Assembly: GCA_963735345.1 (NCBI GenBank)
Contig: CAVTKL010000013.1
Span: 321,130-385,129, forward strand
Direction of reading: 5' to 3'
Origin: an uncultured Thermoleophilia bacterium
GTDB taxonomy: Bacteria > Actinomycetota > Thermoleophilia > UBA2241
DNA: 64,000 nucleotides
How positions within the stretch are numbered: position 1 is the first letter of the stretch; the number at the start of each line of letters is the position of its first letter. Below are positions 20,014 to 36,585 of the stretch, one piece after another. The position numbers were made by a program, and so were the translations under genes. The notes below the pieces were generated by a model. It did not search any database, had not been told where the DNA came from, and saw nothing but the letters and a program-made list of their open reading frames with translations.

Positions 20014-21066
20014 TCACCTCACACGACCTGGCGCAGCGCCCCTCACCAGTCTTCGCGCCCATCGTCGGCCGCGCCGCATCCAGCGATCGCACGGTTCGCC
20101 CAGCTTCACGAGTGAGCGGCCGAGGCGGTACACAGGCGACCGCAGCAGGGCTTCGGCATCATCGACTGGCCTCATCTCCAACGCGGCACTGTGAGCCAGA
20201 TCGGACATCATGCTCACCACGGCGGCAGGGTGGGCGCCCTCGTACCGCTCGAGCCAACTCGGGTAGCGATAGACATTGTGCACCCTGTACGGCTTGCGAA
20301 GCGTCAGGTACGAGTCGGCGAACCAGCGCCGCTCGTTGACAAACCAGTCGCCGTGCAAGCCCCAGTTCGAATAGTACTCCACCTTGTCGCGCACCTGCGC
20401 CGGAAACAGCAGCGAGTAGTGGTGCATGTGGATGCCCCTGCGCGCCATCTCCGCGGCGTCCAGCCAGCAGACCGAGCGGGTGTCCCGGCCGCGATCGTCC
20501 AGCACGGTAGGGGGGCGATGACCCGCGTAGGAGTATCCAGGCCCCCACTTGAACAGCCTGTGGAAGTCCGCAGCCCCGCGGCGAAGATACCATCCGTCCG
20601 CCACGTAGGCCGGCCTCGCCCAATGGGTGATCGTGGGAAAGGTGACAGCCGTGACCTGCGGCTCGCGCGCGAGCCGTTCGACGACCGCTTGCATGTCGGT
20701 CGAGTGGTAGAACTCGTCGACGTCGACCTGCCACAGGTAGTCCCCCGTGGCACGCACCGCGTAGGCCCGGCTCTGCTCGTCCTTCTCCCCCGGCCAGAAC
20801 CCGTCCTCGTGACCTTCGTCCTCGGCGGTCACGATCACGAGTTTGCCCGCCGGATCCTCCTCGCGCGCGAAGCGGCGCAGTTCCTCCAGTGTGCCGTCCC
20901 GGGAGTGCCCGTCGGGAGATGCGATCGCCGCGGCGCCCGGGGCGGCGCCCTCGACGACGATGATCTGGCCAGCGAACGGATAGAGCGCCCGCACGTTGTA
21001 CGTGACGAACGGCATCCCGTTCAGGACGATCATGCCAAAGGTGATGTTCGGACCCAAACGACTCAT
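20014..21066 (-). CDS. Glycosyltransferase (GT2-like / GT-A fold)
   Basis: N-terminal GMIVLNGMPFV and QIIVVEGAA regions, acidic DVDEF motif. ATGA overlap with the downstream-reading AsnB-like gene. Confidence 0.6.
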   Translation of the reverse strand: MSRLGPNITFGMIVLNGMPFVTYNVRALYPFAGQIIVVEGAAPGAAAIASPDGHSRDGTLEELRRFAREEDPAGKLVIVTAEDEGHEDGFWPGEKDEQSRAYAVRATGDYLWQVDVDEFYHSTDMQAVVERLAREPQVTAVTFPTITHWARPAYVADGWYLRRGAADFHRLFKWGPGYSYAGHRPPTVLDDRGRDTRSVCWLDAAEMARRGIHMHHYSLLFPAQVRDKVEYYSNWGLHGDWFVNERRWFADSYLTLRKPYRVHNVYRYPSWLERYEGAHPAAVVSMMSDLAHSAALEMRPVDDAEALLRSPVYRLGRSLVKLGEPCDRWMRRGRRWARRLVRGAAPGRVR

Positions 21067-22509
21067 GAACCGTGCCCGTTCCTCGCCGCATCCCGACGCC
21101 GCAGCAGCGCCTCGATCGGCCGGAGCGTGAGGTACGCCGCGTAGGCCGGCAGTCGCTGCTCGGCGACTCCCAGCCGTTTCATCATCTCGGCCCAGCGACG
21201 GAACCCGTGGGTCAGGCCGAGACGCCAGTAGACCTCCCACCACTGGCCCACAGGCCCGACAGTGCGATTGATCCAGCGGACGTAGTCGGGCTTCACGACC
21301 TCGCGCAGCAACGTAACGTCGAGAGGCCGCAGCGGCACGCGCCTCATCGCCTGGAAGTTGAGGGTGTTGCGAGAGTCGGCGTTCCAGCGCGTGTTCTCGA
21401 GATCCACTCCTTGCCGCGCGAAGAACTCCTTCTGCCACCGCCGGTCCCTGTGGGAGCGCGGGCGGCAGCGTCAGCATGGCCATGGCGAGGTCGACGCTTG
21501 TGAAGGGCGCGGCGCGCCCCGAAGCCCATGGCCTCGGGCGCCCTCACGAGGTAGGAGAGGAGGGCGATGCGCAGCCGGCACGCCGCCACCAGTCTCGGCC
21601 GGTACTGGGTCCGCAGACGCGGGTCCGACTCCAGGAACTCCTGGGCGCCGAGACGCTCGCTCTGGAGGCGGCTCATCGCCGAGTCAGCGGACATCGACGG
21701 GCCCCAACGGAGCAATGCGTAGACGTCGTCTGGACGGTCAAGCCTGCCCGTCTCCCCCTCGGGCCACGGAGAGCCGTTGAACCAGTCTCCACAGGAGCCG
21801 GTGAAGACCACGCTCCCAGCGGCCGTCCGTGAGCGGATGAAGTCGTAGAACTCCAGGTGGTACATGCCGTGCGCGTGCGTCGACACTCCGTATAGCGCAT
21901 CCCAAGCGTCGATGCGTTGGTGGAAGCGGCCCAGCGGCACCAGTTCCCAGCGGATGCCGAGGCGCCGCGCCAGCTCCTTGGCCTTGACCACCTCGAAGAG
22001 ACTCCTGAGGCCTGTCGCTCGTGCCGTACGTGAACGCGCGCACGCGACGCTTGTCGCTGAGCAGTACGTTGATGAAGCGCGAATCGTAGCCGCCACTCGT
22101 CGGCACGACGAGATCCCCTGCCGCGCACGGCGGCGGCGTCGTTGATCCTGGCGCTCGCCAACCCGAGCACGTCCTCGACGCTGCTCTGCCCCTCCAGCCC
22201 CTCGAGAGTGGGGTCGGGCAGGTGCTCCACGCGAAGCCCCGAGGGGCCAGACCACAGGCGCGACGAGTGCCGCAGCATGCGCACGTCGCGCACGGGCGTA
22301 CGGCCGAAGACGCTGAAGCCGAAGTCAAGGTAGTCGTTGAAACCCTCGGGATCGATCTCGACGTTGACGAGGTCGATGACCTCGTTGATGTTGGCTCCGC
22401 TGCGACCGGTCCGCTCGTTGTAGAAGAACGGCCGCGAAGCGAGCCAGTCCGACTCGAAGACGAGCGTCTCGCTCTGGTGCTCGAGATGGGACGCTTCAGG
22501 CAACGGCAT
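21063..22509 (-). pseudogene. Asparagine-synthetase-like amidotransferase (PP-loop SGGYDS), interrupted by >=3 frameshifts
   Basis: Protein is spread over four reading frames (ORFs 21673-22509, 21738-22565, 21344-22255, 21063-21407). SGGYDSRF PP-loop is present. N-terminus lacks the Cys2 glutaminase nucleophile. Confidence 0.6.
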
Positions 22510-22568
22510 GCGGCTCCTCTCTGGTCACGGGCAACGCGAGCGCCCGCTCCGCGCGCCGCCGGCATGCC

Positions 22569-23912
22569 TCAGCGGCCAGGAACGCGAACAGCCAGAAGCC
22601 CATGGGGTACCGGGTCGGGCTGAGGAACCCGAACGACGTCAGGCTCTCGATGAGCGACACCGACGAGCGTTCCCAAGAGGACGAGCGCCAGGAACTCGGC
22701 CTCGCCCTCTCCGCTGAGGCTCATTCTCAGCGGCGCGCCAGCCGGAGACGACATAGAGGAGCAAGACCGTCGCAACACCGATCAGGCCCAGTCGGTACAG
22801 CACCGGCACCCAGACCAGATCGGCGCTCATCCACAGGATGTCAGCGGCCGTGGGCTCCTGCTCGACGGTGACGAATCCTTGGCCCAGCGCGTGGCTCTCC
22901 GAGCCGATCCAGGCGTAGGTGCGCTGCAGCTTGCCCATTCGGTTCTGGAGGTTCTGGTCAGCGACGACGCTCCCGCTGCGCGTGGTCTTGACGATGCGCT
23001 TGAGGAAGTACTGGGACTGGACCGGCAGAGCCACGGTAGGCGACCGCGCCGAAGACGGCCACGAGGGCGAGCACGGCTACCGCTCGTCTCAGGGCCTGCC
23101 CGACCTGCCGCGCCTTGAAGACGCGCACGCCGAGAACCACGACGAACACCGCGATCGTGCACCGACGAGCAGGGTGCGCGTGTACGAGACCCACAGCGCC
23201 GCCAACGGTGACCATCATCACCCCGACCCAGAACACGCTCCACCGAGGCTTGGCGAAGCAGAAGGCGAGCGCCAGGATGCAGAAATCTGCGGCATGAAGT
23301 AGAAGCTCCTCGTGATCTGCTGACCCATGAACGTGATGCTGAGGTACTCCGTCGACCACGTAGATCGGAACGTGCAGCCCCTGGTGCAGGATGAATAGAC
23401 CTGCGGCGATGGTGTTGACGACCACCAGGGCGTCGACGAGATCGACGGTGTCGGAGCGACTCGCGCGACAGAGCATCCCACGAAGAAGGAAGTAGCCGAC
23501 GAAGAGATAGATGAAGCCCTTCGCCTCGCCCACCGTCGCGCTGAGGTCGCCGAAGCGCGACGACCGTGAGAGCCACCTCGAGCGCAGCCAGCGCGGCGAG
23601 CCCCAGCAGAACGACCTCCTCCGGGGCCGAGAGCGACGGGCCGAAGACACGCGGTCGAGGGTCAGCGCGTCGCCGTGACGGCAGCACGCAGCTCGAAGTA
23701 CACGACCCAGACGATCACGAGCCACATCATGATGTGATCTGAGATCGAGAGCCGCCCGGGTATCCAGAAAGGCCGTGCGTAGTCGAAGAACACCGCGAGA
23801 TTCTGATACATGAGGAACGGGATGCCGAGCAGGAAGATGCGCTGCCGAAACGACGCCCCACGAAGTACGCGAGGAGGAGCGCGGGGAGCGCGTAGTGCAG
23901 GAGCGTCAGCAC
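22569..23912 (-). pseudogene. Wzy/O-antigen-ligase-like polytopic membrane protein, heavily frameshifted
   Basis: Hydrophobic helices are distributed over ORFs 23727-23912, 22958-23725, 22827-23687, 22639-23034 and 22569-22778 in different frames. Confidence 0.45.
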
Positions 23913-24234
23913 CTCAGGTCAGTCCCGAAGTAGTCAGAGACCCGACTGCGGACGGCCCCACGCGCGGGAGCGCGCCGAGGATGATCGAGGGCGGCAACTG
24001 AGCCGTCAGGACTCGTCCGGTGCGACCGACCAAGGTTCCCCGCCCAGCCTGCCACCCTCGCGGTGTCACCGACAGACACAGGCTGAAGTCCAACTGGGAG
24101 AGCGACGATCAGCGTCGCCGACGCGGTCACTCGAGAGGTCCGACATGGGGATGGGACAAGCACGCACCCTGCCTCGATTAGGGCGGACCCTCACTTCTTC
24201 CGGCCCGCGGCATCCGACGGAACTGTACACCACT

Positions 24235-24261
24235 TCGATAACGCTTATCGGCGTCGATCAC
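24235..24261. promoter_or_regulatory. AT-rich inverted repeat CGATAA-cgc-TTATCG plus a third CGAT half-site, in the divergent promoter region
   Basis: Unusually AT-rich palindrome in a 70% GC genome. Lies about 160 nt upstream of the beta-helix gene start and 320 nt upstream of the wzy-like start. Confidence 0.3.
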
Positions 24262-24414
24262 TCAACTCCTGAGCCGCAATGCCGAGGCCATGCCTGACGC
24301 AGAACGCACATGTGCTCTGCACGAGGCGAACGATCGGCAGTCGATGGTGGCGTCACATCCTCTGAAAGGACAGGGGATCCGGCCATTCTCGACACTGGAT
24401 CATAGGAGGCAGAC

Positions 24415-26063
24415 GTGACCTCGACGAAGACAATCCTCGTAGGCATAGCTACGTCCTTGCTGCTCGTGCTCGCACTGGCCCCCGCCCCTGCGGGCGCCGC
24501 AGTAATGACTCAAGAGCAGCACGCACGCCTCGCCACCCTCAACGCCCGCGCCACAAGCATCCACGAGCGGATCGGGGAACTCCGCAGGCACACCCGCCTC
24601 GCGCGACACAGCGACAAGCTGCAGCGTCGACTCGTCCGTGCAGACGCAGCGCTGATCCGCGTCAACCAGAGCCTGGCCTCCCTGAACCGTGCCGTTCTCG
24701 ATACCCCCCAAGCGCGTAGTGAGTATGCGGTGAGGCTCCTCGACAGCAATCGTCTTGCTGCGCACGTGACCGCCGACGCCGTGGTCCTGAATGGGCGAGC
24801 CCTGCGCCTCTGGAACGCCGGACTGGGGCGGAGGGTCGAAGCGGCGCGCACTGATCTGGGGATCCTGAGCTCACAGGTTCGCGCCCAGCGTCTGGACTCG
24901 CGCCGACCGAAGCCGCCCTCGAGGCCGGCTCCGACGCCGACAGTGAAGCCAGCCGTGATGCCTACTCCTACTCCTACGCCCACGCCGACTCCGACGCCCA
25001 TTCCCGCGCCCACGGTGACACCGGCACCGACTCCGACGCCCATTCCCGCGCCCACGGTGACACCGGCACCGACTCCTGCACCGGCACCGACTGTGACGCC
25101 GACACCGACGCCCACCGTGACACCGACGCCGACGCCGACCGTGACACCGACACCGACGCCCACCGTGACGCCGACGCCCACACCGACTCCCGCGCCCACG
25201 CCGGCCGATGCGCCTGCGGACTGGACGCTCGTGTCCGGCAAGACTTTCACGACGTACGTGGTGCCGACCGGCACGCAGAACGTCGTCTATGAGGACTGCA
25301 CGTTCACCGGCGGCCTGCCCGACTGGAACGGCGTCCTCACCCTCACCAATCCCTGCCACGACATCACCTTCCGCAATTGCGTGATCGACTCAGGGCCGGT
25401 GAACGGCGTGACCATCGTCGACCAGGGCGGCACGATCTCCAACATCACCTTCGAGAACTGCACCTTCCGCTCCTCGAAGCGCATGGGCTTCGAGTGCATC
25501 AGCCGCGGCTCCGGCAGCAGCGGCTACCGCAACATCAACCTCATCAACTGCACCTTCGAGCCCCAGGGCTCGGAGATCGTCAGCTACGACGGCACGGCCG
25601 CATCCGGGCTATCTCGACGATCAGCGGCTGCACGCTCAAGGGCGGCGGCACGGTCCAGCGCAGCGGCGGCATGGGCAGCGGCCTCGAGCTCAACGGCATC
25701 ACCAACATGACCGTGACGAACAACCGCATCTACGCCTGCGCCAACGGCCTGCTGAACCTGCAGATGGGGCAGATGGACGGCTACACGGGCGACAGCAAGT
25801 GGGTCATCACCGACAACCTCATCGACGCCTCGACCTCTTACGGACCGGTCTCGGTGGGCTCCGCGGTGGTCGGCGGCATCAACGTCTACGGCGGCGTCTA
25901 TGCCCGCAACACGGTGATCAGCGGCCTCTCCTCGGGCGGCTGCCTCACCCTGAACGGGAGCCACAACATGAACTGGCGCACGACGACCTTCCGGGACGCC
26001 CAGAACCGCGCGGACTACGTGACGCCTTGGCAGGGCAGCGGCAGCTCGGGGAACCTGTTCTGA
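24415..26063 (+). CDS. Secreted right-handed beta-helix protein (pectate-lyase/epimerase-like) with coiled-coil and Pro/Thr linker; one frameshift near 25605
   Basis: Signal peptide, then a heptad-like region, then a (PT)n linker, then parallel beta-helix repeats ([30 protein letters not shown]). Frame changes from the 24415 frame to the 25377 frame. Confidence 0.7.
24910..25201 (+). repeat. Coding tandem repeats encoding a [14 protein letters not shown] / PTPTVT linker
   Basis: Perfect 42-nt tandem duplication (24985-25026 = 25027-25068), followed by about four 18-nt PTPTVT units. Confidence 0.85.
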
Positions 26064-26112
26064 CGACAGGCACGAGCCTGGCCACAGGCCGCCTAAGCGA
26101 ACAGCCAGCTAG

Positions 26113-27219
26113 CTAGCCGCGGATCCACCTGTTCATGGATGAGGCGTCCACAAGGGCCGACCCGAGATCCCGGAACTCCGACTCGCCGTGCAGCAAAGCG
26201 TCGACCTGGGTCAGGACCGGCACGCTGCGGTCGCGCAGAAGGAGCCGAGGGCGAAACGGCGCCATCATGCCAAAGACGGACCGATCGCCTCTCTCTTCGA
26301 GGAGCGAGGGCACGCGAAGCCAGCACATGAGATCGGCCCATCCGCTGTTGGGCGCAAACATGAGCCTGCAACTCCTGAGGTAGCCTAGCTCCCGGGTCAA
26401 CAGCGAGGCATCGGCCAGTGAGGCGGTCGTGACCATGCCGTCGGGCAGCACGGAGCCGCCGGGATGCCCGTAGACCAGAAGCGGCAAGCACAAGTGCGCG
26501 GCCGTCGTGCGAGCGTCCGCCAGCACTTCCTCCACGGAGCTGTTTCTCGGGTCGAGCGAGAAGGACACGGACCTCATCTGCACACCCACGTGGTCCGGGT
26601 AGGTGTTCTCCGAGGAGGCGCAGTCGAATGCTGACGGCAGGTAGGTCGGGGGCATCACGTCCCCATGCTTCCAAGGGTCATCGTTGTCGAACTCCGTGGA
26701 GACCTCCACGAGGTCGCGATCCCAGCGCGTCCAAGGGCGAGCTGGGGCCAGGTAGACTCGATGACTCAAGAGGCTGCGCCATTCCTCCTGCAGCCGTCTA
26801 GCCTTCTCGCGAGCCACGACCCCCCTGATCCTGTTGAGCCTGCCCCTGTCGGGCTGCCTGATGTGTGGGCCGAAAGCGAGCCGGTCCGCGCCGTAGCGCC
26901 GGAAGAGGGCGTCCTCGGCGGCGAACAGATCCGGATCGTCGATCGCCGCACCCGCCGGGTACAGTTGCGGTCGACGCGCGAGCACTTTCCAGCCGGCTCT
27001 CAGCCAGGGCTCTACCCGGCCCAGGAAGTAGCGGATCTCGATCCCCATCTCACCTGGGTAGGCAGGCAGCAGGTGACCGTCGCTCACAATGGGGTGCATC
27101 GGCGCAGCCGCCGCACGAGCAGGGACGAGGTGCAAGCGCTCTGCCGACACAGCGATGATTCTCCGTTTGATGCCGAAGTGAGGACTAGTCACGAGAGAGA
27201 GAATGTCGTTCGGACACAA
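26113..27219 (-). CDS. Hypothetical protein, possibly a GT-B-like glycosyltransferase or capsule-synthesis protein
   Basis: 368-aa ORF with coding composition and no recognised motifs. Start may be the internal M at 27102. Confidence 0.35.
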   Translation of the reverse strand: MCPNDILSLVTSPHFGIKRRIIAVSAERLHLVPARAAAAPMHPIVSDGHLLPAYPGEMGIEIRYFLGRVEPWLRAGWKVLARRPQLYPAGAAIDDPDLFAAEDALFRRYGADRLAFGPHIRQPDRGRLNRIRGVVAREKARRLQEEWRSLLSHRVYLAPARPWTRWDRDLVEVSTEFDNDDPWKHGDVMPPTYLPSAFDCASSENTYPDHVGVQMRSVSFSLDPRNSSVEEVLADARTTAAHLCLPLLVYGHPGGSVLPDGMVTTASLADASLLTRELGYLRSCRLMFAPNSGWADLMCWLRVPSLLEERGDRSVFGMMAPFRPRLLLRDRSVPVLTQVDALLHGESEFRDLGSALVDASSMNRWIRG

Positions 27220-27249: not shown

Positions 27250-27684
27250 TCAGAGCTCGACGAGACCGGAGTCGATCCCAGAGGCCCCGGGGGCCGCCGC
27301 CGAGTCCGGGTCACACGTTCCCGCCGAGAGGATGTCCGGGATGCCGACATCTCGAGCCACGCTCAGTGCCCAAGCAGTACGAAGCCCCCGTGGCTTCTCA
27401 TCGTTGATGAGCACTCGCTCGCCAACGGGCAGCCCAAGCAGCAGGATGGCGTACCGCAGCCCCCAACGAGCAAGTTGTTCCTCCGTCTGCTGTCTGTAGC
27501 TATGGGCCCGGGCACTCAACAGCACGACCACATCACCCTCCGGCACATCCCGAAAGAACTCCCGCACCCCCGGCAAAGGGGTCTCCTCGGCCGAATGCAA
27601 GTAGCCATTGTGCGGGAAGATCACGCCGTCGACGTCAATGAGCCACGTCTTGGGCAAGTCACTCAGCTGGGAGCGCCTGATCAC
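27250..27684 (-). CDS. HAD-superfamily phosphatase (KdsC/GmhB-like sugar-phosphate phosphatase)
   Basis: DxDG motif (WLIDVDGVIF). The N-terminal part of the long ORF is S/W-rich junk, and a GTG at 27684 is the preferred start. Overlaps the SIS gene end by 26 nt. Confidence 0.5.
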   Translation of the reverse strand: MIRRSQLSDLPKTWLIDVDGVIFPHNGYLHSAEETPLPGVREFFRDVPEGDVVVLLSARAHSYRQQTEEQLARWGLRYAILLLGLPVGERVLINDEKPRGLRTAWALSVARDVGIPDILSAGTCDPDSAAAPGASGIDSGLVEL

Positions 27685-28267
27685 CGCTCTTGCCCCTTCT
27701 GCCGATAGCGCCACCTGGATGGTTGTGCAGGAACTGCTCCAGAGGGACACCCAGTCTCTCCGAGAGATCCACGGCGATGGCATTGAAGACAGCGAGGAAG
27801 ACGATGGATGAGTTGACCGGAGCCATGTCCCAGAGGTCACCCTCGTGCGCGAGTTCGACGACCGTGCTGTGCTGCGTGAGGTCGGCGATGGGCGACGCGG
27901 CCGTGCAGGTGAGCGACCATGTGGTCAAGGGTCGACTCTGCACAAGCCGCGCAAGAGCGACGCTCTCTTCGGTCGATCCGCTCTTGGAGACGATGATGAG
28001 CAGGTCGTGCGGCGCGAGGATGCCCAGATCGCCGTGGACTGCACTGTTCGAGTGGAGGAATCGAGCCGACAGCCCGAAGCTGTTCAGGGTCCCGGCGAAC
28101 TTCTCGCAGATCGGGACGTTCTTGCCCAAGGCGGTGACCACGACCTGGTGGCCGTCCCGCAATGCAGCCTCGCAAGCATCTGCGAGGAGCCCGACCCCAT
28201 CCGCATCCCTGTCAGCCACCGAGGCGATCGCAGACGCCTGGTCAAGTAGCCGCTCTCTCAGTCCCAC
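27659..28267 (-). CDS. SIS-domain sugar-phosphate isomerase (KpsF/KdsD arabinose-5-P isomerase-like, no CBS domains)
   Basis: ALGKN...HGDLGIL...SKSGSTEE closely matches the KdsD SIS core (GKSGHIGRK...HGDLGM...SNSGES). Confidence 0.65.
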   Translation of the reverse strand: MGLRERLLDQASAIASVADRDADGVGLLADACEAALRDGHQVVVTALGKNVPICEKFAGTLNSFGLSARFLHSNSAVHGDLGILAPHDLLIIVSKSGSTEESVALARLVQSRPLTTWSLTCTAASPIADLTQHSTVVELAHEGDLWDMAPVNSSIVFLAVFNAIAVDLSERLGVPLEQFLHNHPGGAIGRRGKSGDQALPAE

Positions 28268-29763
28268 AACTCCCCCAGCACCTCCGTGCCCCTGTAGAAG
28301 GCGCCGCAGACCTTATCATAGTCATCCCACGCATAGGTCGTCAGCGAGAGCCAGATGATGCCCAGAATCGTCATGAGGTGGCGCTCGGAGATCCCACTGG
28401 CTTCGAAGACCTCAGGAGCCAGTGATTCCCACCCACTGCTCTCGATCTCCAGGTCGACCTCGTGCGGCTTTATGGAGAGGCGAAAGCGACCCACGTTGAA
28501 CTGATCGTAGTTGGTCAGAACGGAGTAGAGCAGCTTGCCCCAATCGTACGCAGGATCGCCAAACAGGCGTGTCGTCCCGAAGTAACCGCGCGGGTCGATG
28601 AAGACGACGCGCTCTCCATCCAGCAGCATGTTCGAGAACGTCGGATCCCCGTGGATGAAGCAGAAGCGCTCCGGGTAGTGACGACGCACCATCTCACTGA
28701 GCGCCTCCCACTGGTAGAGTGGGTTCAGATACGTCCTGCCGTTGATGACGAGCTCAGGGCGATCGGCGAACGGAACGAGCCTCCTCACCTTCGCCAAGCG
28801 CTCCGCCGTCTTCGTGAGATAGGCAGTCTCCAGGCTCGAGGCATCAGCGCTCACTGGGGGGAAGGCTCCATGGATCTCGCTGAGCTCGCGAATGATGGTG
28901 TCCAGAGAACCTTTGGACGCGTGCCCGCGATACGGCTCCCGTCCGCGAACACGCCCCATGCGCAATGGGTCGTAGCCACGAACCGCCGGCAGACACTGCA
29001 GCCCCGCGAGAGAAGCCTGTCGATACCAGTTCTGCTCCAGCTCGGCCAGCGTCCGCCCTTGCTCATCGAGGGGCTCCTTCACGATCGATCCGTCCGGCAG
29101 CGAGGTGATGCTATTGAACGGACGGCTCGCGAACTCGCCGACGCCCCGCTCCTCGTAAGCCTCCAGCGTGCCGATCTCCGAACAGATGTCGCCGAGCGGC
29201 ACGCCCACCGCCTGCCATTCGGGCAATGAAGCGAGGTGCTCGCAGAACTCGCCGGCAGGGGGGACTGAGAGCAGATCAGAGGTCCGCGGGAACCAGAAGT
29301 AGCCTGCGATCCCCGCCACACTGGAAGGCAGATGAATCGGCTTCCCGTCCTGGAGAGACCACCGACATGGAAATGACTGCGAGAGACCGATCGCGGGCAA
29401 GTCAAGACCCGAGCAGAGCGGGACCGGAGACTCGGAGTAGACGAGATCGCACCATGAGAGCACGACGGGAACCTCCGGGTCCAGCTGCTCAGCCGCTTTC
29501 GCGACCCCGGCACAGGTCCCAGAGCCATCAGCCGAGACGATGCGACAGCGCTGATGGCGCCCGAATGCCTCCATGTACCTCCTGAGCACGTCGAGCTTGT
29601 AGTCGCCGATGACGACGATGTCCGCCTCGGGGAAGAGGTCCAAAGCGTGAAAGAGCAGCGGCTTGCCGCGAAGAGGGACAAGCGCCTTGGGCTTGTTGGC
29701 GGTGAGCTGTGCCATGCGCGTGCCTTGGCCCCCCGCCTGGATTATGACGTTGAGCTCGCCCAT
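28258..29763 (-). CDS. Bifunctional nucleotidyltransferase (N-term) / APH-choline-kinase-fold sugar or small-molecule kinase (C-term)
   Basis: N-terminal IIQAGGQGTRM...KPKALVPL nucleotidyltransferase signature. C-terminal FIHGDPTFSNMLL and FIDPRGYFG Brenner/APH motifs. Resembles AmgK-MurU or LicA-LicC fusions. Confidence 0.7.
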   Translation of the reverse strand: MGELNVIIQAGGQGTRMAQLTANKPKALVPLRGKPLLFHALDLFPEADIVVIGDYKLDVLRRYMEAFGRHQRCRIVSADGSGTCAGVAKAAEQLDPEVPVVLSWCDLVYSESPVPLCSGLDLPAIGLSQSFPCRWSLQDGKPIHLPSSVAGIAGYFWFPRTSDLLSVPPAGEFCEHLASLPEWQAVGVPLGDICSEIGTLEAYEERGVGEFASRPFNSITSLPDGSIVKEPLDEQGRTLAELEQNWYRQASLAGLQCLPAVRGYDPLRMGRVRGREPYRGHASKGSLDTIIRELSEIHGAFPPVSADASSLETAYLTKTAERLAKVRRLVPFADRPELVINGRTYLNPLYQWEALSEMVRRHYPERFCFIHGDPTFSNMLLDGERVVFIDPRGYFGTTRLFGDPAYDWGKLLYSVLTNYDQFNVGRFRLSIKPHEVDLEIESSGWESLAPEVFEASGISERHLMTILGIIWLSLTTYAWDDYDKVCGAFYRGTEVLGELWD

Positions 29764-29799
29764 TGCGCCCGGTCCCATTGGCTGCTTCGCCCGCGACCG

Positions 29800-31092
29800 C
29801 TAGGCCCCGGAGACCCCGCTCACCGACAGTTCCAGCGGTCCGTCAGAAATGCGCACGTCATCCTCACCAAAGGTCGCCGCCCAGTTGGTGCCATAGCGGA
29901 AGTCGAACCCTACTCGGCCCGGATCGCAGGTCTCCACGTCGAACTCGAGATGGACGGCGTCGATGACTCGGCGAAAGGCCTGAGTCGCAGCCAGCTCGAG
30001 ACGGTATCTTCCCGACGCCAGCGGCAGTCGACGTATGTCGAGCGTGATCGGCAAACGCGCCGAGACGGGAACGAAGCTGCTCCTGCCGAAAGAGCTCTGG
30101 CGCCCCGAACACGACCGGCTGTCCGACGATCGTGACGATCCTCCATTCGACGTTGAAGGCCAGCTCTTCGCGACCCACGCAGGCCATTTCGACGTGCAGG
30201 CTGGTCAGGGAGTCCTCGTCCTGCGTCGACGTCCAGAACGTGCGCCTCAGCGATCGCGACGTCCGCCATCGACTGCTCGTCGTCCGCCCTGCGGACGGTG
30301 AAGACGGTGCCCTGAGTGCCACCCTCGGCGACGTACTCGTCGACGATTTCGTCGACGTCTCCCACCTGCACGAGTCGACCCAGCGTCGAGAAGAGCACAG
30401 CGCGTGCACAGGGCGCGCACGGCGCCCATGTTGTGGCTGACGAAGACGACGGTCCTGCCGCTGCTGGCGACCTGCTCCATCTTGCCGAGGCACTTCTTCT
30501 GGAACTCGGCGTCGCCGACGGCAAGCACCTCGTCGACGATGAGGATCTCCGGGTCGAGGGACGAGGCGACCGCGAACGCAAGCCGCACGTACATGCCGCT
30601 CGAGTAGCGCTTCACGGGTGTGTCGAGGAAGCGTCCGATCTCGCTGAACTCGACGATCTCGTCGAACTTGCGCTTGATCTCGGCGCGCGTCATGCCCAGG
30701 ATCGCGCCGTTCAGCAGGATGTTCTCGCGACCGGTCAGCTCGTTGTGGAAGCCGGTGCCCACCTCGAGGAGGCTCGCCACCCGCCCTCTGATCTCGGCCC
30801 GCCCTTCGGTCGGCTCAGTGATGTGAGAGAGCACCTTCAGCAGCGTGCTCTTGCCGGAGCCATTGCGTCCGATCACGCCCATCACTTCGTCGCGCTTCAC
30901 CTCGAAGCTGATGTCCCTGAGCGCCCAGAGCGTCTCCGAGGTGTGGGTAGCGGCGCCAGGGTGGCGAAGACGCTCGAGCGGGCGCTTGGCGGCCTGCGTG
31001 AGCGTGTCACGCAGCGTTCGATAGCTCGCACGCTCACCACCGATGCGGTACATCTTGCCAAGGCCGACCGTACGCAGGGCGACGTCGCTCAT
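29800..31092 (-). pseudogene. wzt: ABC transporter ATP-binding protein Wzt with C-terminal carbohydrate-binding domain; three apparent frameshifts
   Basis: Walker A GRNGSGKST, signature YSSGM, Walker B ILIVDE. Reading continues in shifted frames (ORFs 29910-30581, 29864-30493, 29800-30054) into a Wzt-C-like beta-sandwich. Confidence 0.7.
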
Positions 31093-31095
31093 CGT

Positions 31096-31963
31096 TCACA
31101 CCACATCGGCGAACACACGCTCCATTCTCTTGAAGTAGAACAAGCCGAAGACGAACAGCACGACGATCACTACCGTCGAGATCCACATGTAGCCGCCCGG
31201 AGCCTGCTGACCGAGCAACGCCCAGCGGAAGCCGCCGATCACTCCCGTCATCGGGTTCAGGGCGAAGATGACACGCAAAGGCCCTTCCGGGATACTGCTG
31301 ATCGGGTAGATCACGGGGCTCACGAACATCCAGAGCTGAACCAGGAACGGGATGACGTACTGCACGTCGCGATACAGGACATTGAGGGCGCTCAGCCAGA
31401 GACTGACGGCGAGCGCGGTGACAAGCGCGAGCAGGACGAACAGCGGCAGAAAGACGATGTGCCATGTGGGGGCGATCCCATACGCAGCCATGAGTCCGAT
31501 CAGCACCACGAACGAGACGCCGAGGTCGACTAGCCCGGCCAGCACCGCCGAGACGGGGATCACCAGCCGCGGAAAGTAGACCTTGGTGATGAGGTTCGCG
31601 TTGCCGACGAGGCTCACGCCGGAGCGCGACAGCGCTCCGGCGAAGAACTGCCACGGCAGCAGCCCGGCGAAGCTGAACACCGGGTAGGGGATACCGGAGG
31701 TCGAGTCCTGACCGATCCCGAGCATCTTGTTGAACACGACCGTGAACACCACCATCGTGAGGAGCGGCTGCAGGATCGCCCAAGCCACGCCGATGACGGC
31801 CTGCTTGTAGCGGACGAGAATGTCCCGCCACGTGAGGAAGTAGAGAAGCTCGCGATACTCCCACAGCTCACCGAAGCCGAGCGCCGCCCAGCCACGCTTG
31901 CGTTCGTAGACGACGAAACCCCTTGTCCGCCGGCGCGCTGGCTGCCTTCGCGATGCCCATCAT
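31096..31963 (-). CDS. wzm: ABC-2 type polysaccharide exporter permease Wzm (N-terminal frameshift or non-canonical start)
   Basis: ABC-2 signature region ELWEYRELLYFLTWRDILVRYKQAVIGVAWAILQPLL is in frame upstream of the called GTG 31788, with no in-frame ATG/GTG. An ATG at 31963 is in the +1 frame. Confidence 0.65.
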
Positions 31964-32382
31964 CTCCCTTCCGCGGCGATCCACCTCATGTCCCCGGCCA
32001 GAGACAGACCTGCTCCGAGGCTCCGACAACGGCAGTAGCCCACGTTAGAGGCGGGCGAGTAGTCTAGCACTCCGCATCTACCCCGCCTGAGCTCCTGTCG
32101 GCATGCAGGTCCGACGTCGTCCCAGTGGACTACGCGTTCCTGCCGTTCTATCGGCACCCTGGCGAGAAAGCGTAGTCTTCGTGTGAGTCTTGGTAGACTT
32201 GCCACGTTCGGGGCTCCGACTCCACGCGATGCGATGGCGAGCGAAGGAGGAGTGGTGGCGGATTTCGTCGAGGCTGGCAGATCGTTCGAGGAGACAAGCG
32301 AGGCTGGCGCCGGTCGCACTCATCGAACGCGCAGCGCGAAGCAGCCCGGTGATCTTACGTCACGGACCCCAGAGGAGGACGC

Positions 32383-33237
32383 GTGACCCATACGCCCCGC
32401 ATCTCCGTGGTGACACCCTCCTTCCAGCAGGCGGCGTTCGTCGAGGCGACCCTCCGTTCGGTCGTCGACCAGAAATACGAGGGGCTGGAGTACGTCGTCA
32501 TCGACGGCGGCTCGACTGACGGTAGCGTCGAGATCATCGAGCGATACGAGAAGCACCTGGCGTACTGGGTGAGTGAACCTGACAACGGCCACGCGCATGC
32601 TCTGAACAAGGGCTTCGCTCGGACCAGCGGCGACATCATGTGCTGGATCAACAGCTCCGATCTGCACTATCCCTGGACGCTGCAGACAGTCGCCGACGTG
32701 TTCGAGTCCCTGCCGGAGGTGGAATGGGTGATGGGGATGCCCTCTCAGTTCTCGACCATGGGCGGCCCGAAGAGCGTCGGCCAGAGCTCAATGAACGTGT
32801 ACGATTTCCTCGCCGGCAACTACCGGTGGATCCAGCAGGAGTCTGTGTTCTGGCGCCGCAGCCTTTGGGAACGTGCCGGTGGGGAGCTGAACGACAGGCT
32901 CGTCTGCGCCGCGGACTTCGACCTCTGGCTGCGGTTCCTGCGCCTTGCCCCCCTGTGCCACGTTGGCACACTGCTCGCCGGGTTCCGCGTCCACGACAAC
33001 CGTCTCGGCGAAGTCGGCAACGGGCTGTACGAGCGCGAGACCACGGCCCTGCACGCGGAGTTCGTGGCTGCGTTCGGTCGCCGCGACTTGCGCAGGGCCC
33101 GCCTCGTGCGCGCCGTCGGCGCCGGTCGGCGAAAGGTCGTCGGACAGGCGCTCCACAAGGTCGGTGTCTGGCCGTGGTACAGGCACCCCGACGTGCGCTT
33201 CGACTTCAACGCCGAGCGATGGTCTCTACGCAAATGA
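32383..33237 (+). CDS. Glycosyltransferase family 2
   Basis: ISVVTPSFQQAAFVEATLRSVVDQKYEGLEYVVIDGGSTDGS GT2 motif. SD AGAGGAGG precedes the GTG start. Confidence 0.85.
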   Translation: MTHTPRISVVTPSFQQAAFVEATLRSVVDQKYEGLEYVVIDGGSTDGSVEIIERYEKHLAYWVSEPDNGHAHALNKGFARTSGDIMCWINSSDLHYPWTLQTVADVFESLPEVEWVMGMPSQFSTMGGPKSVGQSSMNVYDFLAGNYRWIQQESVFWRRSLWERAGGELNDRLVCAADFDLWLRFLRLAPLCHVGTLLAGFRVHDNRLGEVGNGLYERETTALHAEFVAAFGRRDLRRARLVRAVGAGRRKVVGQALHKVGVWPWYRHPDVRFDFNAERWSLRK

Positions 33238-34478
33238 CGCCCTGCACCGCGCTGCGTCGACCCCCTCATGTCGTCTTCCTGATCCGCTCGTTCGGGTTTC
33301 CCGAAGGAACCGCGGCGACCAACCGCGTGCGCTTGCTCGGCCGCGCGCTGAAGGATCAGGGCGCGGCCGTGAGCGTCGTCTGCATGCGAGTGAGCGAGAG
33401 CACCGACGCCTGCCTCAACCACGCCGTGCGCGGCACCTGCGAGGGCATCGACTTCTTCTACGCCACCGGCGCTACGGTGCGCTCCAGTTCCTTCCTCATC
33501 AGACGCTACCGGGAGGCGCGTGGGTACTTCGTCTCGCTGGGACGCCTGTGGCGCCTGCACCGCCGCGGCGACCTCGACTGTGTCTATCTCGCGGCTCTGC
33601 CGGAGGCGGACCGGCTCAGCATGTGGCTTGCCCTCCGGTTCGTTGCTTCGCTGGGGGTGCCGATCGTCGTCGAACTCAACGAGTTGCCCAGCGCTGTCGG
33701 CAATCCCTCAGGCCTGCTGACTCGCCGCTTCCCGCCCCTCGACGGCGTGCAGGGCACCGTCGTGATCTCCGCGTGGTTATCGGACTGGGTAGCCGCCGAG
33801 GCGGCACGCACACACCATCCGGTCAAGATCATCGAAGTGCCGATCGTCGTCGATGTCGATGAACAGGACGTCACACCCTACCCGGCGGGATCACCCGTGT
33901 TCGTGTACTCCGCTTCGACCGGGTACGACCGCCATGTGACCTTCGTTCTCAACGCGATGAGGCTGGTGTGGCAGAAGCGTCCCGACTGCCGCCTGACCGT
34001 GACGGGCATGGCCCCCCAGCGAGTTGCCGCTATCGGCGCGAAGGCGGGGATGCACGGCGCGATCAGCGACCGCCGGATCGTCCTCACCGGCTACGTCGAT
34101 CGCGCCGACCTCCTGGAGTACTACCGCAGCGCTGCGGCGCTGCTCATCCCTCTGTTCGACGACCTTCGCTCCCGGGCGCGGTTCCCTACCAAGATCGGCG
34201 AGTACCTCTCTGCGGCGCGGCCCATCGTGACCTCCGAGGTGGGCGAGATCCCGCGCTACTTCACGGACGGGGAGACCGCCTATCTGGCGGCGCCTGGCGA
34301 TGTCACGGCCTTCGCCGCCAAGATGGTGGAGGTCCTCGATGACCCAGGGCGGGCGGCCATGGTCGGCAGCGCAGGGCGACGGCTGGCCGAACAGAACTTC
34401 CGGTACACCGAACACGGTCGCCGCCTGTTCGACTTTATCGGCTCTCTGGCGCCGACAAATCGGGGACAGACGCGATGA
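33234..34478 (+). CDS. Glycosyltransferase family 4
   Basis: GT-B C-terminal motifs (FPTKIGEYLSAARPIV). ATGA overlap with the upstream GT2. Confidence 0.8.
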   Translation: MTPCTALRRPPHVVFLIRSFGFPEGTAATNRVRLLGRALKDQGAAVSVVCMRVSESTDACLNHAVRGTCEGIDFFYATGATVRSSSFLIRRYREARGYFVSLGRLWRLHRRGDLDCVYLAALPEADRLSMWLALRFVASLGVPIVVELNELPSAVGNPSGLLTRRFPPLDGVQGTVVISAWLSDWVAAEAARTHHPVKIIEVPIVVDVDEQDVTPYPAGSPVFVYSASTGYDRHVTFVLNAMRLVWQKRPDCRLTVTGMAPQRVAAIGAKAGMHGAISDRRIVLTGYVDRADLLEYYRSAAALLIPLFDDLRSRARFPTKIGEYLSAARPIVTSEVGEIPRYFTDGETAYLAAPGDVTAFAAKMVEVLDDPGRAAMVGSAGRRLAEQNFRYTEHGRRLFDFIGSLAPTNRGQTR

Positions 34479-35473
34479 GACTGGCCGTCACCATCGACAC
34501 GGAGGCAGACAGCCAGTGGGACCCAGGCATTCCCATCTCGACGCGCAACGTCGAGTTCTGGGAACCCTTCCAGGATCTCTGCGAACGGCACGGAGTGTCC
34601 CCGACCTACCTTGTCGCGACCGAGATCGTGCAGGATGACAAGGCCTGCGCCCTGCTGGACGCATGGAGACGCCGTGGCGTCGCCGAGGTCGGAGCTCATC
34701 TCCATCCGTGGACGACACCCCCCTTCGCCGACCTCCCCGGTCTGCGTCACAACGACCCGGTCCATGCATTCCCCTCGCAGCTCCCCGACGACCTGCTCCA
34801 AGAGAAGACCCTCGTCTTGACCGATCAGATCGCTGGCGCCTTCGGTGCCCGTCCAACCTCGTACCGCGCTGGCCGGTTCGGCCTGGACGCCCGCGGCGCG
34901 GCCTACCTTGCGCAGGCCGGGTACCTCGTGGATTCTTCGGTCACGCCGCTGACGTCGTGGGACGCACATCCAGGTCTCGATGCGGCTGGCGGGCCGGACT
35001 TCAGGCACCACTCTCCCCTGCCGTTCCGAATCGCGACCGGCGGTACGGATGATCTGATCGAGGTCCCGGTGACGGTCCTGACGTCGTACGAGTTGCTCAG
35101 GCGGCTGCCGATCCTTCTCCGCGCCTACAGGACGCTTCCGGTGCGCGCAGTGCGCAAGCTGCTGCTCTCCCGATGGCTGCTGCCGCAGCCGGTGTGGTTG
35201 TCCCCAGACCCACGATACAAGCCCGAGGATCTCGCCCAGACGTGGCGCTGCGCGTCGCACGCCGGTCTCGACACGGCCGTCATGATGTTCCACAGCAGTG
35301 AACTCATGCCCGGCGGCAGTCCCTTCTGGCCGGACGCGCGCGCCGTGAGTACCCTGCTGGCGTGCCTCGACGAGTTCTTCGCATTCGTTCGTCGCGAGGG
35401 TGGCGAGTTCTCGACTCTGACGGGGCTGGCGACGCAACTCGACGCCGGCAGCCTCAGGGTGAAGTCGCTGTGA
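34475..35473 (+). CDS. Putative polysaccharide deacetylase / glycoside-hydrolase-like protein
   Basis: Translationally coupled into the GT operon. Has His-rich motifs (HLHPW, MFHSSEL). Family assignment is tentative. Confidence 0.45.
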   Translation: MRLAVTIDTEADSQWDPGIPISTRNVEFWEPFQDLCERHGVSPTYLVATEIVQDDKACALLDAWRRRGVAEVGAHLHPWTTPPFADLPGLRHNDPVHAFPSQLPDDLLQEKTLVLTDQIAGAFGARPTSYRAGRFGLDARGAAYLAQAGYLVDSSVTPLTSWDAHPGLDAAGGPDFRHHSPLPFRIATGGTDDLIEVPVTVLTSYELLRRLPILLRAYRTLPVRAVRKLLLSRWLLPQPVWLSPDPRYKPEDLAQTWRCASHAGLDTAVMMFHSSELMPGGSPFWPDARAVSTLLACLDEFFAFVRREGGEFSTLTGLATQLDAGSLRVKSL

Positions 35474-35475
35474 AG

Positions 35476-36585
35476 ATGATGCTCCTTGTCGACCGCCTGG
35501 GCAATGGCGGCCTGGAACGACAGCTCGCGCTCGTCGCTACGAGCCTCCCCGAAAGCTGGGAACGGCGTGTATGGGCGATGGGGGGCGGTCCATTCGCGAC
35601 GTACCTGCGAGAGCAAGGCATACCAGTCGCGATCCATGACCGGCGCGCTCGCTTCGACCCCCTGCCCGCGCCGGCACTGTGGCGGGAACTGATCAGATGG
35701 CGACCCGATGTGGTTCACTCATGGCACTGGATGTCGACTGTAGCCGCAGCGCCGATGTGCAGGCTGCTGGGCATCCCTCTCATCGACGGCATGATCCAGA
35801 CGGGCGTACGTCAGCCGGATCACGCTTGGCTGAAGCAGTTCGGCATGCGGTGCGCAACGCTGGTGGCCGCCAACACCCAGGCAGGCCTCGATGCGTGGAA
35901 CGTCTGCCCCGCGAAAGGACGCGTACTCTACAACGGCTTCGATCGCGGCCGCCTTCCCCCAGCCGTCGAGCAGAGGGCTGACGACGCCACGTGCTTCACG
36001 GTGATCATGACGGCACGTATGGAGCCCGTGAAGCATTACGACGTCGTCATCGAGGCCGCGCGCCAGCTCAGTCGTGAGTCAGACGGTTGGCGCTTCGTGC
36101 TCGTCGGTGAGGGCTCGGATCGCGCTCGCCTGCAGGCCACGGCTTCCGAGCTCGTACGCGTCGGCGTCGTGGCATTCCCGCAGCCGCGCATGGAGATCCT
36201 CGAGCTCGTTCGCGACGCCGACGTAGGAGTCCTGATGACCAACCCGGCGTTTGCCAAGGAGGGCCTCTCTAACTCGATCATGGAGTACATGGCTCTGGGC
36301 CTGCCGGTCGTCTGTGGAGACGGCGGGGGCAACCCCGAGCTCGTCCTCGACCAGGTCACAGGGTTCATCGTTCCTCCTGCGAGCCCTGGCGACCTGGCTG
36401 ATCGACTGCGGTACCTGCGCACGCACAGGTCCGAAGGAAGGGCGATGGGTGAGGCGGGGGAGAGACGCATCCGCGAATGCTTCTCCGCGGACGCGATGGT
36501 GGTTCGGGCGACGAGCATCTACGCCGAGGCCATGGACGCCCAAGGCCGGCGCCAACGATGCTCACGTGAGAAGGGCAGGAGCTGA
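35476..36585 (+). CDS. Glycosyltransferase family 4
   Basis: EGLSNSIMEYMALGLPVV GT4 motif. Start ATG at 35476 or GTG at 35470, adjacent to the upstream stop. Confidence 0.8.
   Translation: MMLLVDRLGNGGLERQLALVATSLPESWERRVWAMGGGPFATYLREQGIPVAIHDRRARFDPLPAPALWRELIRWRPDVVHSWHWMSTVAAAPMCRLLGIPLIDGMIQTGVRQPDHAWLKQFGMRCATLVAANTQAGLDAWNVCPAKGRVLYNGFDRGRLPPAVEQRADDATCFTVIMTARMEPVKHYDVVIEAARQLSRESDGWRFVLVGEGSDRARLQATASELVRVGVVAFPQPRMEILELVRDADVGVLMTNPAFAKEGLSNSIMEYMALGLPVVCGDGGGNPELVLDQVTGFIVPPASPGDLADRLRYLRTHRSEGRAMGEAGERRIRECFSADAMVVRATSIYAEAMDAQGRRQRCSREKGRS

What the first reader, a model, noticed from the sequence alone, without database searches (positions are those of the whole stretch)
29800..31963. 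wzt (three frameshifts) and wzm (start missing) disrupted, with at least one shift at a G-run
Wzt reads in frames 0, 2, 1, 0 along its length. One shift maps to a GGG/GG run (gctGGGtcgactc), where removing one G restores LLDAG-RLVQVGDVDEIV. The Wzm conserved N-terminal region (LWEYRELLYFLTWRD) is in frame upstream of the called start, but has no in-frame start codon. An ATG at 31963 is in the +1 frame. The exporter of the ABC-dependent polymer may therefore be inactive, slippage-prone or mis-assembled. The Wzt C-terminal beta-sandwich implies a terminally capped polymer recognised by the transporter.
Basis: seen in the sequence. Interest (0 to 1): 0.55.

Follow-up and report, generated by a model that had tools for sequence, protein, structure and literature searches.

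The report
Frameshifted wzm–wzt: probable assembly artefact
The polysaccharide-exporter genes wzm and wzt really do carry four one-base insertions in this record, but the evidence points to consensus errors of a long-read metagenome assembly at a strain-variable locus rather than to a dead or switchable exporter.

Summary
On the minus strand, wzt (31092..29800) changes frame three times. The "missing start" of wzm (31963..31096) is a fourth frameshift about 40 nt after its ATG. All four are single extra bases. Removing them gives a 288-aa Wzm and a 429-aa Wzt, gapless and 97% identical to an intact, syntenic metagenome ortholog (P0121).

The reading "inactive or slippage-prone exporter" is not supported:
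- Substitutions against two conspecific genomes are synonymous-biased in the corrected frames, including downstream of the shifts (pN/pS 0.10-0.30, like intact neighbours).
- Each inserted base sits where the two relatives differ, and the window carries both alleles side by side. The chance of this for random insertions is about 4e-5.
- The sister genome L001 is in frame at all four sites but has its own, different shifts.
- All of the window's roughly 12 frameshifts fall in two strain-hypervariable blocks. None was detected in the other ~57 kb.
- The relatives have Flye-style contig names, which hints at long-read assemblies.

The most likely cause is mixed-strain consensus error. The Wzt C-terminal domain fails Pfam Wzt_C, but profile and structure comparison show an A. 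aeolicus-like beta-sandwich. Interest is low.

The parts
31096..31963 (-). wzm, the ABC-2 type membrane permease; 288 aa after removing one base
   Evidence: Pfam ABC2_membrane E=6.5e-21 on the corrected protein. The window matches residues 12-287 of the L082 Wzm at 96.7%. Intact orthologs are 288 aa (JGI contig) and 287 aa (L082; L164).
31916..31924 (-). One extra base in ACAAGGGGTTTC, which separates the ATG(ATG) start from the rest of wzm
   Evidence: L082/L164 read AAGGGGTTC and L001 reads AGGGGTTTC, both in frame. The window reads AAGGGGTTTC, which combines both.
29800..31092 (-). wzt, the ABC ATPase with a C-terminal beta domain; 429 aa after removing three bases
   Evidence: Pfam ABC_tran E=7.6e-22. 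Full-length alignment to intact 419-431-aa homologs at 60-86% identity. 97% gapless identity to P0121. Walker A GRNGSGKST, signature YSSGM, Walker B ILIVDE and H-loop SH are read directly from the sequence.
30378..30382 (-). wzt frameshift 1, an extra base in GCTGGGTCGA
   Evidence: L082 reads GCTGGGCGG and L001 reads GCGGGTCGA. The window carries both the upstream T and the downstream T.
30224..30225 (-). wzt frameshift 2, an extra base in GTCGACGCAG, not in a homopolymer
   Evidence: L001 reads GTCGACCAG and L082 reads GTCGTGCAG. The window carries C and G side by side.
30048..30051 (-). wzt frameshift 3, an extra base in TTTGCCGATCACG
   Evidence: L082 reads TTTGCCGTCACG and L001 reads TTTGGGATCACG. 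The window carries G and A side by side.
29800..30380 (-). Wzt C-terminal all-beta domain, probably carbohydrate-binding, split over three frames in this record
   Evidence: The AF2 model of ortholog P0001 has 8 strands over residues 278-415 with pLDDT 70-88. Foldseek top hits are full-length A. aeolicus Wzt with 408-419 aligned columns. The profile alignment reaches residue 356 of 8dku_A. There is no Pfam Wzt_C hit.
21004..26066 (.). Second strain-hypervariable block with at least 8 further frame changes, the same phenomenon as in wzm-wzt
   Evidence: tblastn of intact L082 proteins. The 480-aa Asn-synthase-like homolog is split over 5 frame segments (22509-21066). The 468-aa homolog is split over at least 4 (23853-22499). 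The 557-aa homolog is split over 2 (24415-26060). Divergence from L001 is 4-7% here.

Best explanation
wzm and wzt are an ordinary, functional ABC-transporter pair for export of an undecaprenyl-linked glycan. They sit in a glycosyltransferase and sugar-nucleotide cluster of a high-GC soil bacterium, probably Thermoleophilia-like. The four one-base insertions are most likely errors of the deposited consensus, not mutations of the organism. The locus is strongly polymorphic among co-occurring strains of the species. When long reads from two allele types are piled onto one draft, a substitution or adjacent double substitution can be resolved as 'keep base A and also insert base B'. This leaves both alleles in the consensus and adds one base. 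Shown here: the insertions, their exact coincidence with allelic differences, purifying selection in the corrected frames, intact orthologs, and confinement of all frameshifts to hypervariable blocks. Inferred: that the assembly is long-read and mixed-strain, and that the polisher produced the doubling.
For: (1) Corrected proteins equal intact orthologs in length and are collinear. Wzt is 429 aa and 97% identical without gaps to P0121, which comes from a JGI contig with the same gene order and a 288-aa Wzm. L082 has an intact Wzm of 287 aa and Wzt of 429 aa.
(2) pN/pS in corrected frames is low. Versus L001: wzm 0.17, wzt NBD 0.19-0.20, wzt after the first shift 0.20. Versus L082: 0.10, 0.20 and 0.30. 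Intact neighbours give 0.11-0.17.
(3) Three-way DNA alignment: all 4 insertions, plus a fifth at 32113 upstream of wzm, lie at sites where L001 and L082 differ, and the window has both bases adjacent. A random 1-nt insertion would look like this with p=0.079, so 4 of 4 gives about 4e-5.
(4) L001 is 98-99% identical in the flanks. It is in frame at all four sites but has different shifts in wzm, wzt, the NTP-transferase/kinase gene and a GT4 gene.
(5) Indels cluster where strains diverge. Substitutions are 6-10% at 30000-32000 and 4-7% at 21000-24000, against about 1.2% elsewhere. Of 59 indel events, 56 fall in these blocks. No frameshift signature was found in the other ~57 kb.
(6) In wzm-wzt the window has only 10 unique substitutions, against 167 for L001 and 190 for L082. 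It lies on the path between two allele types, as a blended consensus would.
(7) The relatives come from ENA assemblies with Flye-style 'contig_N' names. The nearest GTDB genome is a Microflora Danica MAG. That project used Nanopore-only metaFlye with one round of Medaka (PMC12313526).
Against: No reads were available, so the error is inferred and not seen. The source assembly of the window could not be identified, so its sequencing platform is unknown. The window's central position between the alleles is also what a natural, unrecombined allele would show. P0121 shows that a window-like NBD allele exists in nature. In the second block, some window-specific insertions (for example 21998) are not at sites polymorphic among the sequences in hand. 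The 'SNP doubling' assignments were made by eye on short alignments, so the p-value is approximate.
Confidence: 0.8

Rival explanations
1. The inactivation is real and recent. This strain, and independently its sister L001, has lost the glycan exporter through several fresh frameshifts, for example under phage or predator pressure on a surface polysaccharide. Too little time has passed for relaxed selection to show.
For: The frameshifts are in the deposited sequence. Surface-glycan loci are common targets of loss. Both conspecific genomes carry disruptions in the same genes. The neighbouring gene content is strain-variable, as L082 lacks the NTP-transferase/SIS module.
Against: Four independent hits in 2.1 kb, plus at least 8 in another block, with none shared between sister genomes and no rise in pN/pS, would need an implausible burst of mutations. 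Real insertions have no reason to duplicate the alternative allele of a polymorphic site. An intact ortholog at 97% identity exists.
Confidence: 0.12
2. The frameshifts reflect phase variation by slipped-strand mispairing, or programmed ribosomal or transcriptional frameshifting, so that exporter expression is switchable.
For: Two of the four sites touch short runs, GGG and A2G4T3.
Against: The runs are 2-4 nt, far below tracts known to slip at useful rates. Two sites have no run. Restoring the protein would need four simultaneous corrections. All orthologs (P0001-P0020, P0121, P0122) encode a single uninterrupted ORF, so no conserved shift site exists.
Confidence: 0.02
3. These are old pseudogenes. 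The exporter was lost in the common ancestor and both copies are decaying neutrally, which would explain the raised divergence.
For: Divergence in wzm-wzt is 5-8 times that of the flanks, and indels are numerous.
Against: Substitutions are strongly third-position and synonymous-biased. For wzt versus L001 the codon positions 1/2/3 carry 21/12/60 substitutions and pN/pS is 0.19. pS of 0.18-0.25 far exceeds the flank pS of 0.02-0.04, so the excess is allelic divergence or recombination, not neutral decay. No frameshift is shared between the genomes.
Confidence: 0.03

Closest known systems
Aquifex aeolicus Wzm-Wzt O-antigen ABC transporter (PDB 6M96, 7K2T, 8DKU)
   Same: An ABC-2 permease gene lies immediately upstream of the ATPase gene. 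The NBD is about 40% identical, and the family profile matches 8dku_A at E=9e-88. The alignment continues into the C-terminal carbohydrate-binding domain. The predicted fold is an 8-strand beta domain after the NBD.
   Different: The C-terminal domain is too diverged to hit Pfam Wzt_C. The host is probably a high-GC actinobacterial lineage, so the exported polymer is unlikely to be a classical LPS O antigen (inference). The ligand or cap is unknown.
E. coli O9a / Raoultella terrigena Wzt with a cap-binding C-terminal domain (Pfam PF14524 Wzt_C)
   Same: The architecture is the same, an NBD followed by a beta-sandwich of about 150-190 aa. More distant homologs with 57-60% overall identity (P0042, P0046) carry PF14524 at the equivalent position, residues 269-393. 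The window's domain aligns to P0042 at 26% identity, E=1e-4.
   Different: Neither the window protein nor its close orthologs reach the PF14524 model. No WbdD-like terminator was identified next to it.
TagGH/TarGH and mycobacterial Wzm-Wzt (Rv3781/Rv3783-type) cell-wall glycopolymer exporters
   Same: The transporter family is the same, with Foldseek and HMM hits at E of about 1e-20 to 1e-65. The monoderm or actinobacterial setting is similar.
   Different: The structures matched here cover only the NBD (for example the B. subtilis TagH N-terminal domain and 260-aa mycobacterial chains). No match to the window's C-terminal domain was seen in them.
Indel and frameshift errors of long-read metagenome assemblies at strain-heterogeneous loci
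   Same: The lesions are single-base indels that split otherwise conserved genes. They are confined to regions where conspecific strains differ. A sister assembly shows different errors in the same genes.
   Different: The errors are not mainly in homopolymers. They look like retention of both alleles of a substitution. This was not verified on reads.

Membership tests
Wzm/Wzt-type (ABC-2) glycan exporter | An ABC-2 membrane permease gene adjacent to and co-oriented with the ATPase gene | tested here: met
   PF01061 E=6.5e-21 on corrected Wzm. The wzm stop at 31096 lies 3 nt before the wzt ATG at 31092.
Wzm/Wzt-type (ABC-2) glycan exporter | An NBD with Walker A, a YSSGM-type signature, Walker B and an H-loop, closest to Wzt/TagH structures | tested here: met
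   PF00005 E=7.6e-22. The motifs are invariant in A1/A2. Best PDB matches are A. aeolicus Wzt, TarH/TagH and M. abscessus Wzt.
Wzm/Wzt-type (ABC-2) glycan exporter | Uninterrupted reading frames | tested here: not met
   There are four +1 insertions in this record. The frames are intact in orthologs P0121, P0122 and L164.
Wzt with C-terminal carbohydrate-binding domain (Pfam Wzt_C, PF14524) | A match to the PF14524 profile | tested here: not met
   No hit at E<=10 for the corrected 192-aa C-terminus or for ortholog P0001. P0042 and P0046 do hit, at 1e-13.
Wzt with C-terminal carbohydrate-binding domain (Pfam Wzt_C, PF14524) | A beta-sandwich fold C-terminal to the NBD that superposes on a solved Wzt CBD | tested here: inconclusive
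   The AF2 model has 8 beta strands with pLDDT 70-88. Full-length A. aeolicus Wzt chains are the top Foldseek hits with 408-419 aligned columns, but TM is only 0.44-0.54 and no domain-only superposition was made. The profile alignment reaches into the CBD.
Wzt with C-terminal carbohydrate-binding domain (Pfam Wzt_C, PF14524) | Binding of a non-reducing-end cap of the polymer | not testable with these tools
   Needs biochemistry. No terminator gene was identified.
Pseudogene (relaxed selection) | pN/pS approaching 1 downstream of the lesion | tested here: not met
   pN/pS after the first wzt shift is 0.20 versus L001 and 0.30 versus L082.
Pseudogene (relaxed selection) | The lesion is shared with, or no intact copy exists in, the closest relatives | tested here: not met
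   L001 and L082 are in frame at all four sites. P0121 is intact at 97% identity.
Phase-variable contingency gene | A long homopolymer or short tandem repeat tract at the shift site | tested here: not met
   The runs are 2-4 nt, and two sites have none.
Programmed frameshift gene | The shift site and two-frame arrangement are conserved in orthologs | tested here: not met
   All 20 or more full-length homologs are single ORFs.
Long-read consensus error at mixed-strain locus | Reads of a single haplotype lack the extra base | not testable with these tools
   No read data and the source assembly was not identified. The indirect evidence is listed under the best explanation.

The most novel reading that the evidence does not exclude
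The insertions are real. Two sister strains of one soil species have each just knocked out the same surface-glycan exporter, and a neighbouring Asn-synthase-like module, by multiple independent frameshifts. This would be convergent, very recent loss of a cell-surface polymer in nature.
Probability: 0.1. Interest if true: 0.4.

Novelty: not a real feature. Interest (0 to 1): 0.1.

Why it matters
If the frameshifts were taken at face value, this genome would be annotated as lacking a working exporter for its ABC-dependent cell-surface glycan. A pseudogene or phase-variation story might then be built on it. The analysis indicates the gene pair is ordinary and most likely intact in the organism.

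The useful lessons are practical. Frameshifts in long-read MAGs concentrate in strain-variable loci such as surface-polysaccharide clusters. They can take the form of both alleles of a substitution being kept in the consensus. They can be recognised without reads from three signals: purifying selection in the corrected frame, intact close orthologs, and coincidence with allelic differences.

A small biological point remains. This clade's Wzt carries a C-terminal beta domain too diverged for Pfam Wzt_C. The wzm-wzt alleles differ 8-17% between strains whose flanks differ 1-3%, which suggests exchange of exporter specificity.

Tried and rejected
They returned only distant relatives. Neither the source genome nor the DNA of the JGI contig was obtained.
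2. Exact-protein look-ups for the window's own products (P0022, the 506-aa NTP-transferase/kinase) found nothing on record. The SIS protein and P0121 gave contigs without DNA. The window's sample and platform therefore stay unknown.
3. Dropping all gap columns from the pairwise alignment to get a common frame scrambled the frames. It was replaced by per-segment codon analysis in the window's known frames. The first attempt had wrong phases for segments 2 and 3 and was corrected.
4. A simple GC3 phase plot was too noisy. It was replaced by a codon-usage Viterbi parse and an ORF-boundary check.
5. An outgroup test to separate 'blended consensus' from 'natural central allele' was considered and dropped, because both scenarios predict the same site patterns.
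6. A methylation-motif cause was considered because GTCGAC occurs next to four indels. It was not pursued, because the allele-doubling pattern explains the sites better.
7. Old pseudogene, phase variation and programmed frameshift were considered and rejected. See the rival explanations.

Full report
**1. What is in the sequence**

The window is 66.5% G+C. On the minus strand, an ABC-2 permease gene (wzm, 31963..31096) is followed 3 nt later by an ABC ATPase gene (wzt, ATG 31092, stop 29800).

Translation of the three minus-strand frames shows wzt running in four segments (exact segment coordinates):
- To ~30383 it reads one frame, ending …RALCTRCALLDAG.
- Over 30380-30225 it reads the next frame (RLVQVGDVDEIVDEYV…HVLDVD).
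- Over 30223-30053 it reads the third frame (QDEDSLTSLHVEM…RSRLGAF).
- Over 30048-29803 it returns to the first frame (ITLDIRRLPLASGRYRLE…VSGA*).

In wzm, the conserved N-terminal segment FVVYERKRGWAALGFGELWEYRELLYFLTWRD has no start codon in its own frame. An ATGATG at 31963/31960, preceded by GGAAGGGAG, opens MMGIAKAASAPADKG in the adjacent frame. The two frames meet at ACAAGGGGTTTC (31916-31924). All four changes have the same sign, one extra base each. This is why wzt ends in the frame in which it began.

**2. The breaks are real departures from an intact gene**

A search with the frame-corrected Wzt returned about twenty full-length metagenome homologs of 419-431 aa. They are 60-86% identical over 97-100% of the query and align straight across all three junctions. 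The window's own truncated product (281 aa, P0022) is in the database from NCBI/ENA, on a 534,617-bp contig.

A 429-aa protein from a JGI metagenome (P0121) is 97% identical to the corrected Wzt with no gap. Its 9.7-kb contig has the same gene order as the window:
- GT4 (414 aa)
- GT2 (284 aa)
- Wzm (288 aa)
- Wzt (429 aa)
- NTP-transferase/kinase (501 aa)
- SIS (202 aa)
- proteins of 144 aa and 328 aa

My corrected Wzm is also 288 aa.

**3. Two conspecific genomes**

L001 (ENA ERZ25039462, contig_27073, 1.06 Mb) aligns to window 19764-40833 at 96.8% identity. L082 (ENA ERZ25039459, contig_45637, 1.47 Mb) aligns to 29478-41090 at 95.3%.

L082 has intact wzm (287 aa) and wzt (429 aa). A Logan contig of run ERR11561443 (L164) is 99.96% identical to L082 and confirms its in-frame wzm start.

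L001 is in frame at all four window sites but carries different frameshifts in wzm, wzt (called as 343 aa, P0007), the NTP-transferase/kinase gene and a GT4 gene.

**4. Where the indels are**

The window and L001 differ by 59 indel events. Of these, 56 lie in two blocks, 32167-28927 and 25611-21428. Only three fall in the remaining ~13 kb of the alignment.

The same blocks have 4-10% substitutions, against about 1.2% elsewhere. tblastn of the intact L082 proteins shows which window genes are broken:
- wzm (1 frame change)
- wzt (3)
- a 480-aa Asn-synthase-like homolog (4)
- a 468-aa homolog (at least 3)
- a 557-aa homolog (1)

Every other shared gene is intact. These are the 1074-aa protein, the GT4 of 368 aa, the 332-aa protein, the GT4 of 414 aa, the GT2 of 284 aa, and the 350-aa and 363-aa proteins.

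A codon-usage Viterbi parse and an ORF-boundary check of the whole window found no frameshift signature in the other ~57 kb. Errors or mutations are thus not uniform. They track strain-level divergence.

**5. Selection test**

I used the window's known frames segment by segment and scored each substitution as synonymous or not.

| Region | Comparator | pN/pS | Notes |
|---|---|---|---|
| wzm | L001 | 0.17 | pS 0.25 |
| wzt NBD | L001 | 0.19 | pS 0.24 |
| three wzt segments after the first shift | L001 | 0.23, 0.13, 0.22 | together 0.20; codon positions 1/2/3 = 6/5/16 |
| intact neighbours | L001 | 0.11-0.17 | pS 0.02-0.04 |
| wzm | L082 | 0.10 | |
| wzt NBD | L082 | 0.20 | |
| wzt after the first shift | L082 | 0.30 | |

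The L001 figures are, and the L082 figures.

Two conclusions follow. First, the raised divergence is allelic, because synonymous divergence is 6-10 times that of the flanks. This is typical of recombining surface-glycan loci and is not neutral decay. Second, the frames downstream of the shifts have been under purifying selection for essentially all of that divergence. Old pseudogenes are excluded. Real lesions would have to be very recent, numerous and independent in each genome.

**6. Nature of the inserted bases**

In the three-way alignment, each window-specific insertion lies exactly where L001 and L082 differ. At each one the window carries both variants next to each other.

| Site | L082 | L001 | Window |
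|---|---|---|---|
| wzm | AAGGGGTTC | AGGGGTTTC | AAGGGGTTTC |
| wzt site 1 | GCTGGGCGG | GCGGGTCGA | GCTGGGTCGA |
| wzt site 2 | GTCGTGCAG | GTCGACCAG | GTCGACGCAG |
| wzt site 3 | TTTGCCGTC | TTTGGGATC | TTTGCCGATC |

A fifth insertion, upstream of wzm at 32113, does the same: ACGT-C… in L082, ACGT-G… in L001, ACGTCG… in the window.

A random one-base insertion in wzm-wzt would mimic this with probability 0.079, so four of four has p of about 4e-5. This figure is approximate, because the assignments were made by eye. Homologous recombination between the alleles would keep the length. Retaining both bases is what a pile-up consensus does when reads of two haplotypes disagree.

Two other observations fit this. 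In wzm-wzt the window has only 10 private substitutions, against 167 for L001 and 190 for L082. At least one of L001's own lesions, CT[C]GGGC for CTC/CTG-GGC, could have arisen the same way.

**7. Sequencing context (inferred)**

The relatives are ENA metagenome assemblies with Flye-style contig names. The nearest GTDB representative is a Thermoleophilia MAG of the Microflora Danica series. That project assembled Nanopore-only data with metaFlye and one round of Medaka, and it reports variable microdiversity among MAGs (PMC12313526).

I could not identify the window's own record. The platform is therefore an inference, drawn from the 0.53-Mb soil-type contig and its relatives.

**8. The C-terminal domain**

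Pfam finds ABC_tran but not Wzt_C (PF14524) in the corrected protein, in its isolated 192-aa C-terminus, or in the intact ortholog P0001, even at E<=10. The literal prediction "Wzt_C after correction" therefore fails.

Other evidence does point to a comparable domain:
- More distant homologs that cover the C-terminus (P0042, P0046) carry PF14524 at residues 269-393.
- The window's domain aligns to P0042 collinearly at 26% identity over 183 aa, E=1e-4.
- An AlphaFold2 model of P0001, built with a 21-sequence alignment, gives an eight-strand all-beta domain at residues 278-415 with pLDDT mostly 70-88.
- The best Foldseek matches are the full-length A. aeolicus Wzt chains (8DKU, 7K2T, 8DL0), with E of about 1e-32 and 408-419 aligned columns.
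- The family profile aligns to 8dku_A through residue 356, well inside its carbohydrate-binding domain.

A diverged Wzt-type beta-sandwich is thus likely. Whether it binds a terminal cap was not tested.

**9. Verdict**

The most probable explanation (about 0.8) is a consensus artefact at a strain-polymorphic locus of a long-read metagenome assembly. The exporter itself is an ordinary Wzm/Wzt pair. Real recent multi-hit inactivation remains possible (about 0.1). Phase variation, programmed frameshifting and old pseudogenisation are effectively excluded. Read mapping would settle the question.

Noticed in passing
window 21004-26066: This is a second block with at least 8 frame changes, affecting homologs of L082's 480-aa (Asn_synthase-like), 468-aa and 557-aa proteins. 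It has 4-7% substitutions against L001. It shows the same clustering of indels with strain divergence as wzm-wzt. Some insertions here (for example TCT[C]TTC at 21998) are not at sites polymorphic among the sequences in hand.
   Followed up: partly
L082 15956-19074 (corresponds to window 22509-21066): L082 has two tandem copies of the 480-aa gene. Copy a is intact and closer to the window allele (96.6%). Copy b is split into 353 + 128 aa and is closer to the L001 allele (97.0%). This could be a true duplication or two strain haplotypes assembled in tandem.
   Followed up: partly
window 29478-26066 versus L082 11608-12384: The module next to wzt is absent from L082 and present in L001 and the JGI contig. 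It comprises the NTP_transf_3+APH fusion (506 aa, 28258-29778), a SIS-domain protein (27659-28267), a small ORF with a DVDG motif that may be HAD-like (27250-27840, no Pfam hit), and a 368-aa protein with no Pfam hit (26113-27219). Gene content beside the exporter is therefore strain-variable. The module looks like a sugar-nucleotide (heptose-like) pathway, but this is unverified.
   Followed up: partly
window 30000-32000: wzm-wzt alleles differ 8-17% between conspecific genomes whose flanks differ 1-3%, with pN/pS of about 0.2. L082's divergence is concentrated in the Wzt C-terminal domain (79 and 152 unique substitutions in the last two 500-nt bins). This fits recombinational exchange of exporter or ligand specificity.
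   Followed up: partly
window ~25137 and ~24960: There is a 24-nt indel (CGGCGTCGGCGTCGGTGTCACGGT) and a 6-nt indel (AGTAGG) against L001, within a short-repeat region of the 557/540-aa gene. Both preserve the frame and are probably true repeat-number variation.
   Followed up: no
window 36645-39863 (-): This is a 1074-aa protein with no Pfam hit on record. It contains diverged internal DNA repeats (about 69% identical segments around 38100-38560 and 39100-39300, seen in blastn against L082). It is conserved and intact in all three genomes.
   Followed up: no
window 40009 and 32113: Two further window-specific one-base insertions lie in non-coding DNA, also at sites where L001 and L082 differ. 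The one at 32113 carries both alleles side by side.
   Followed up: yes
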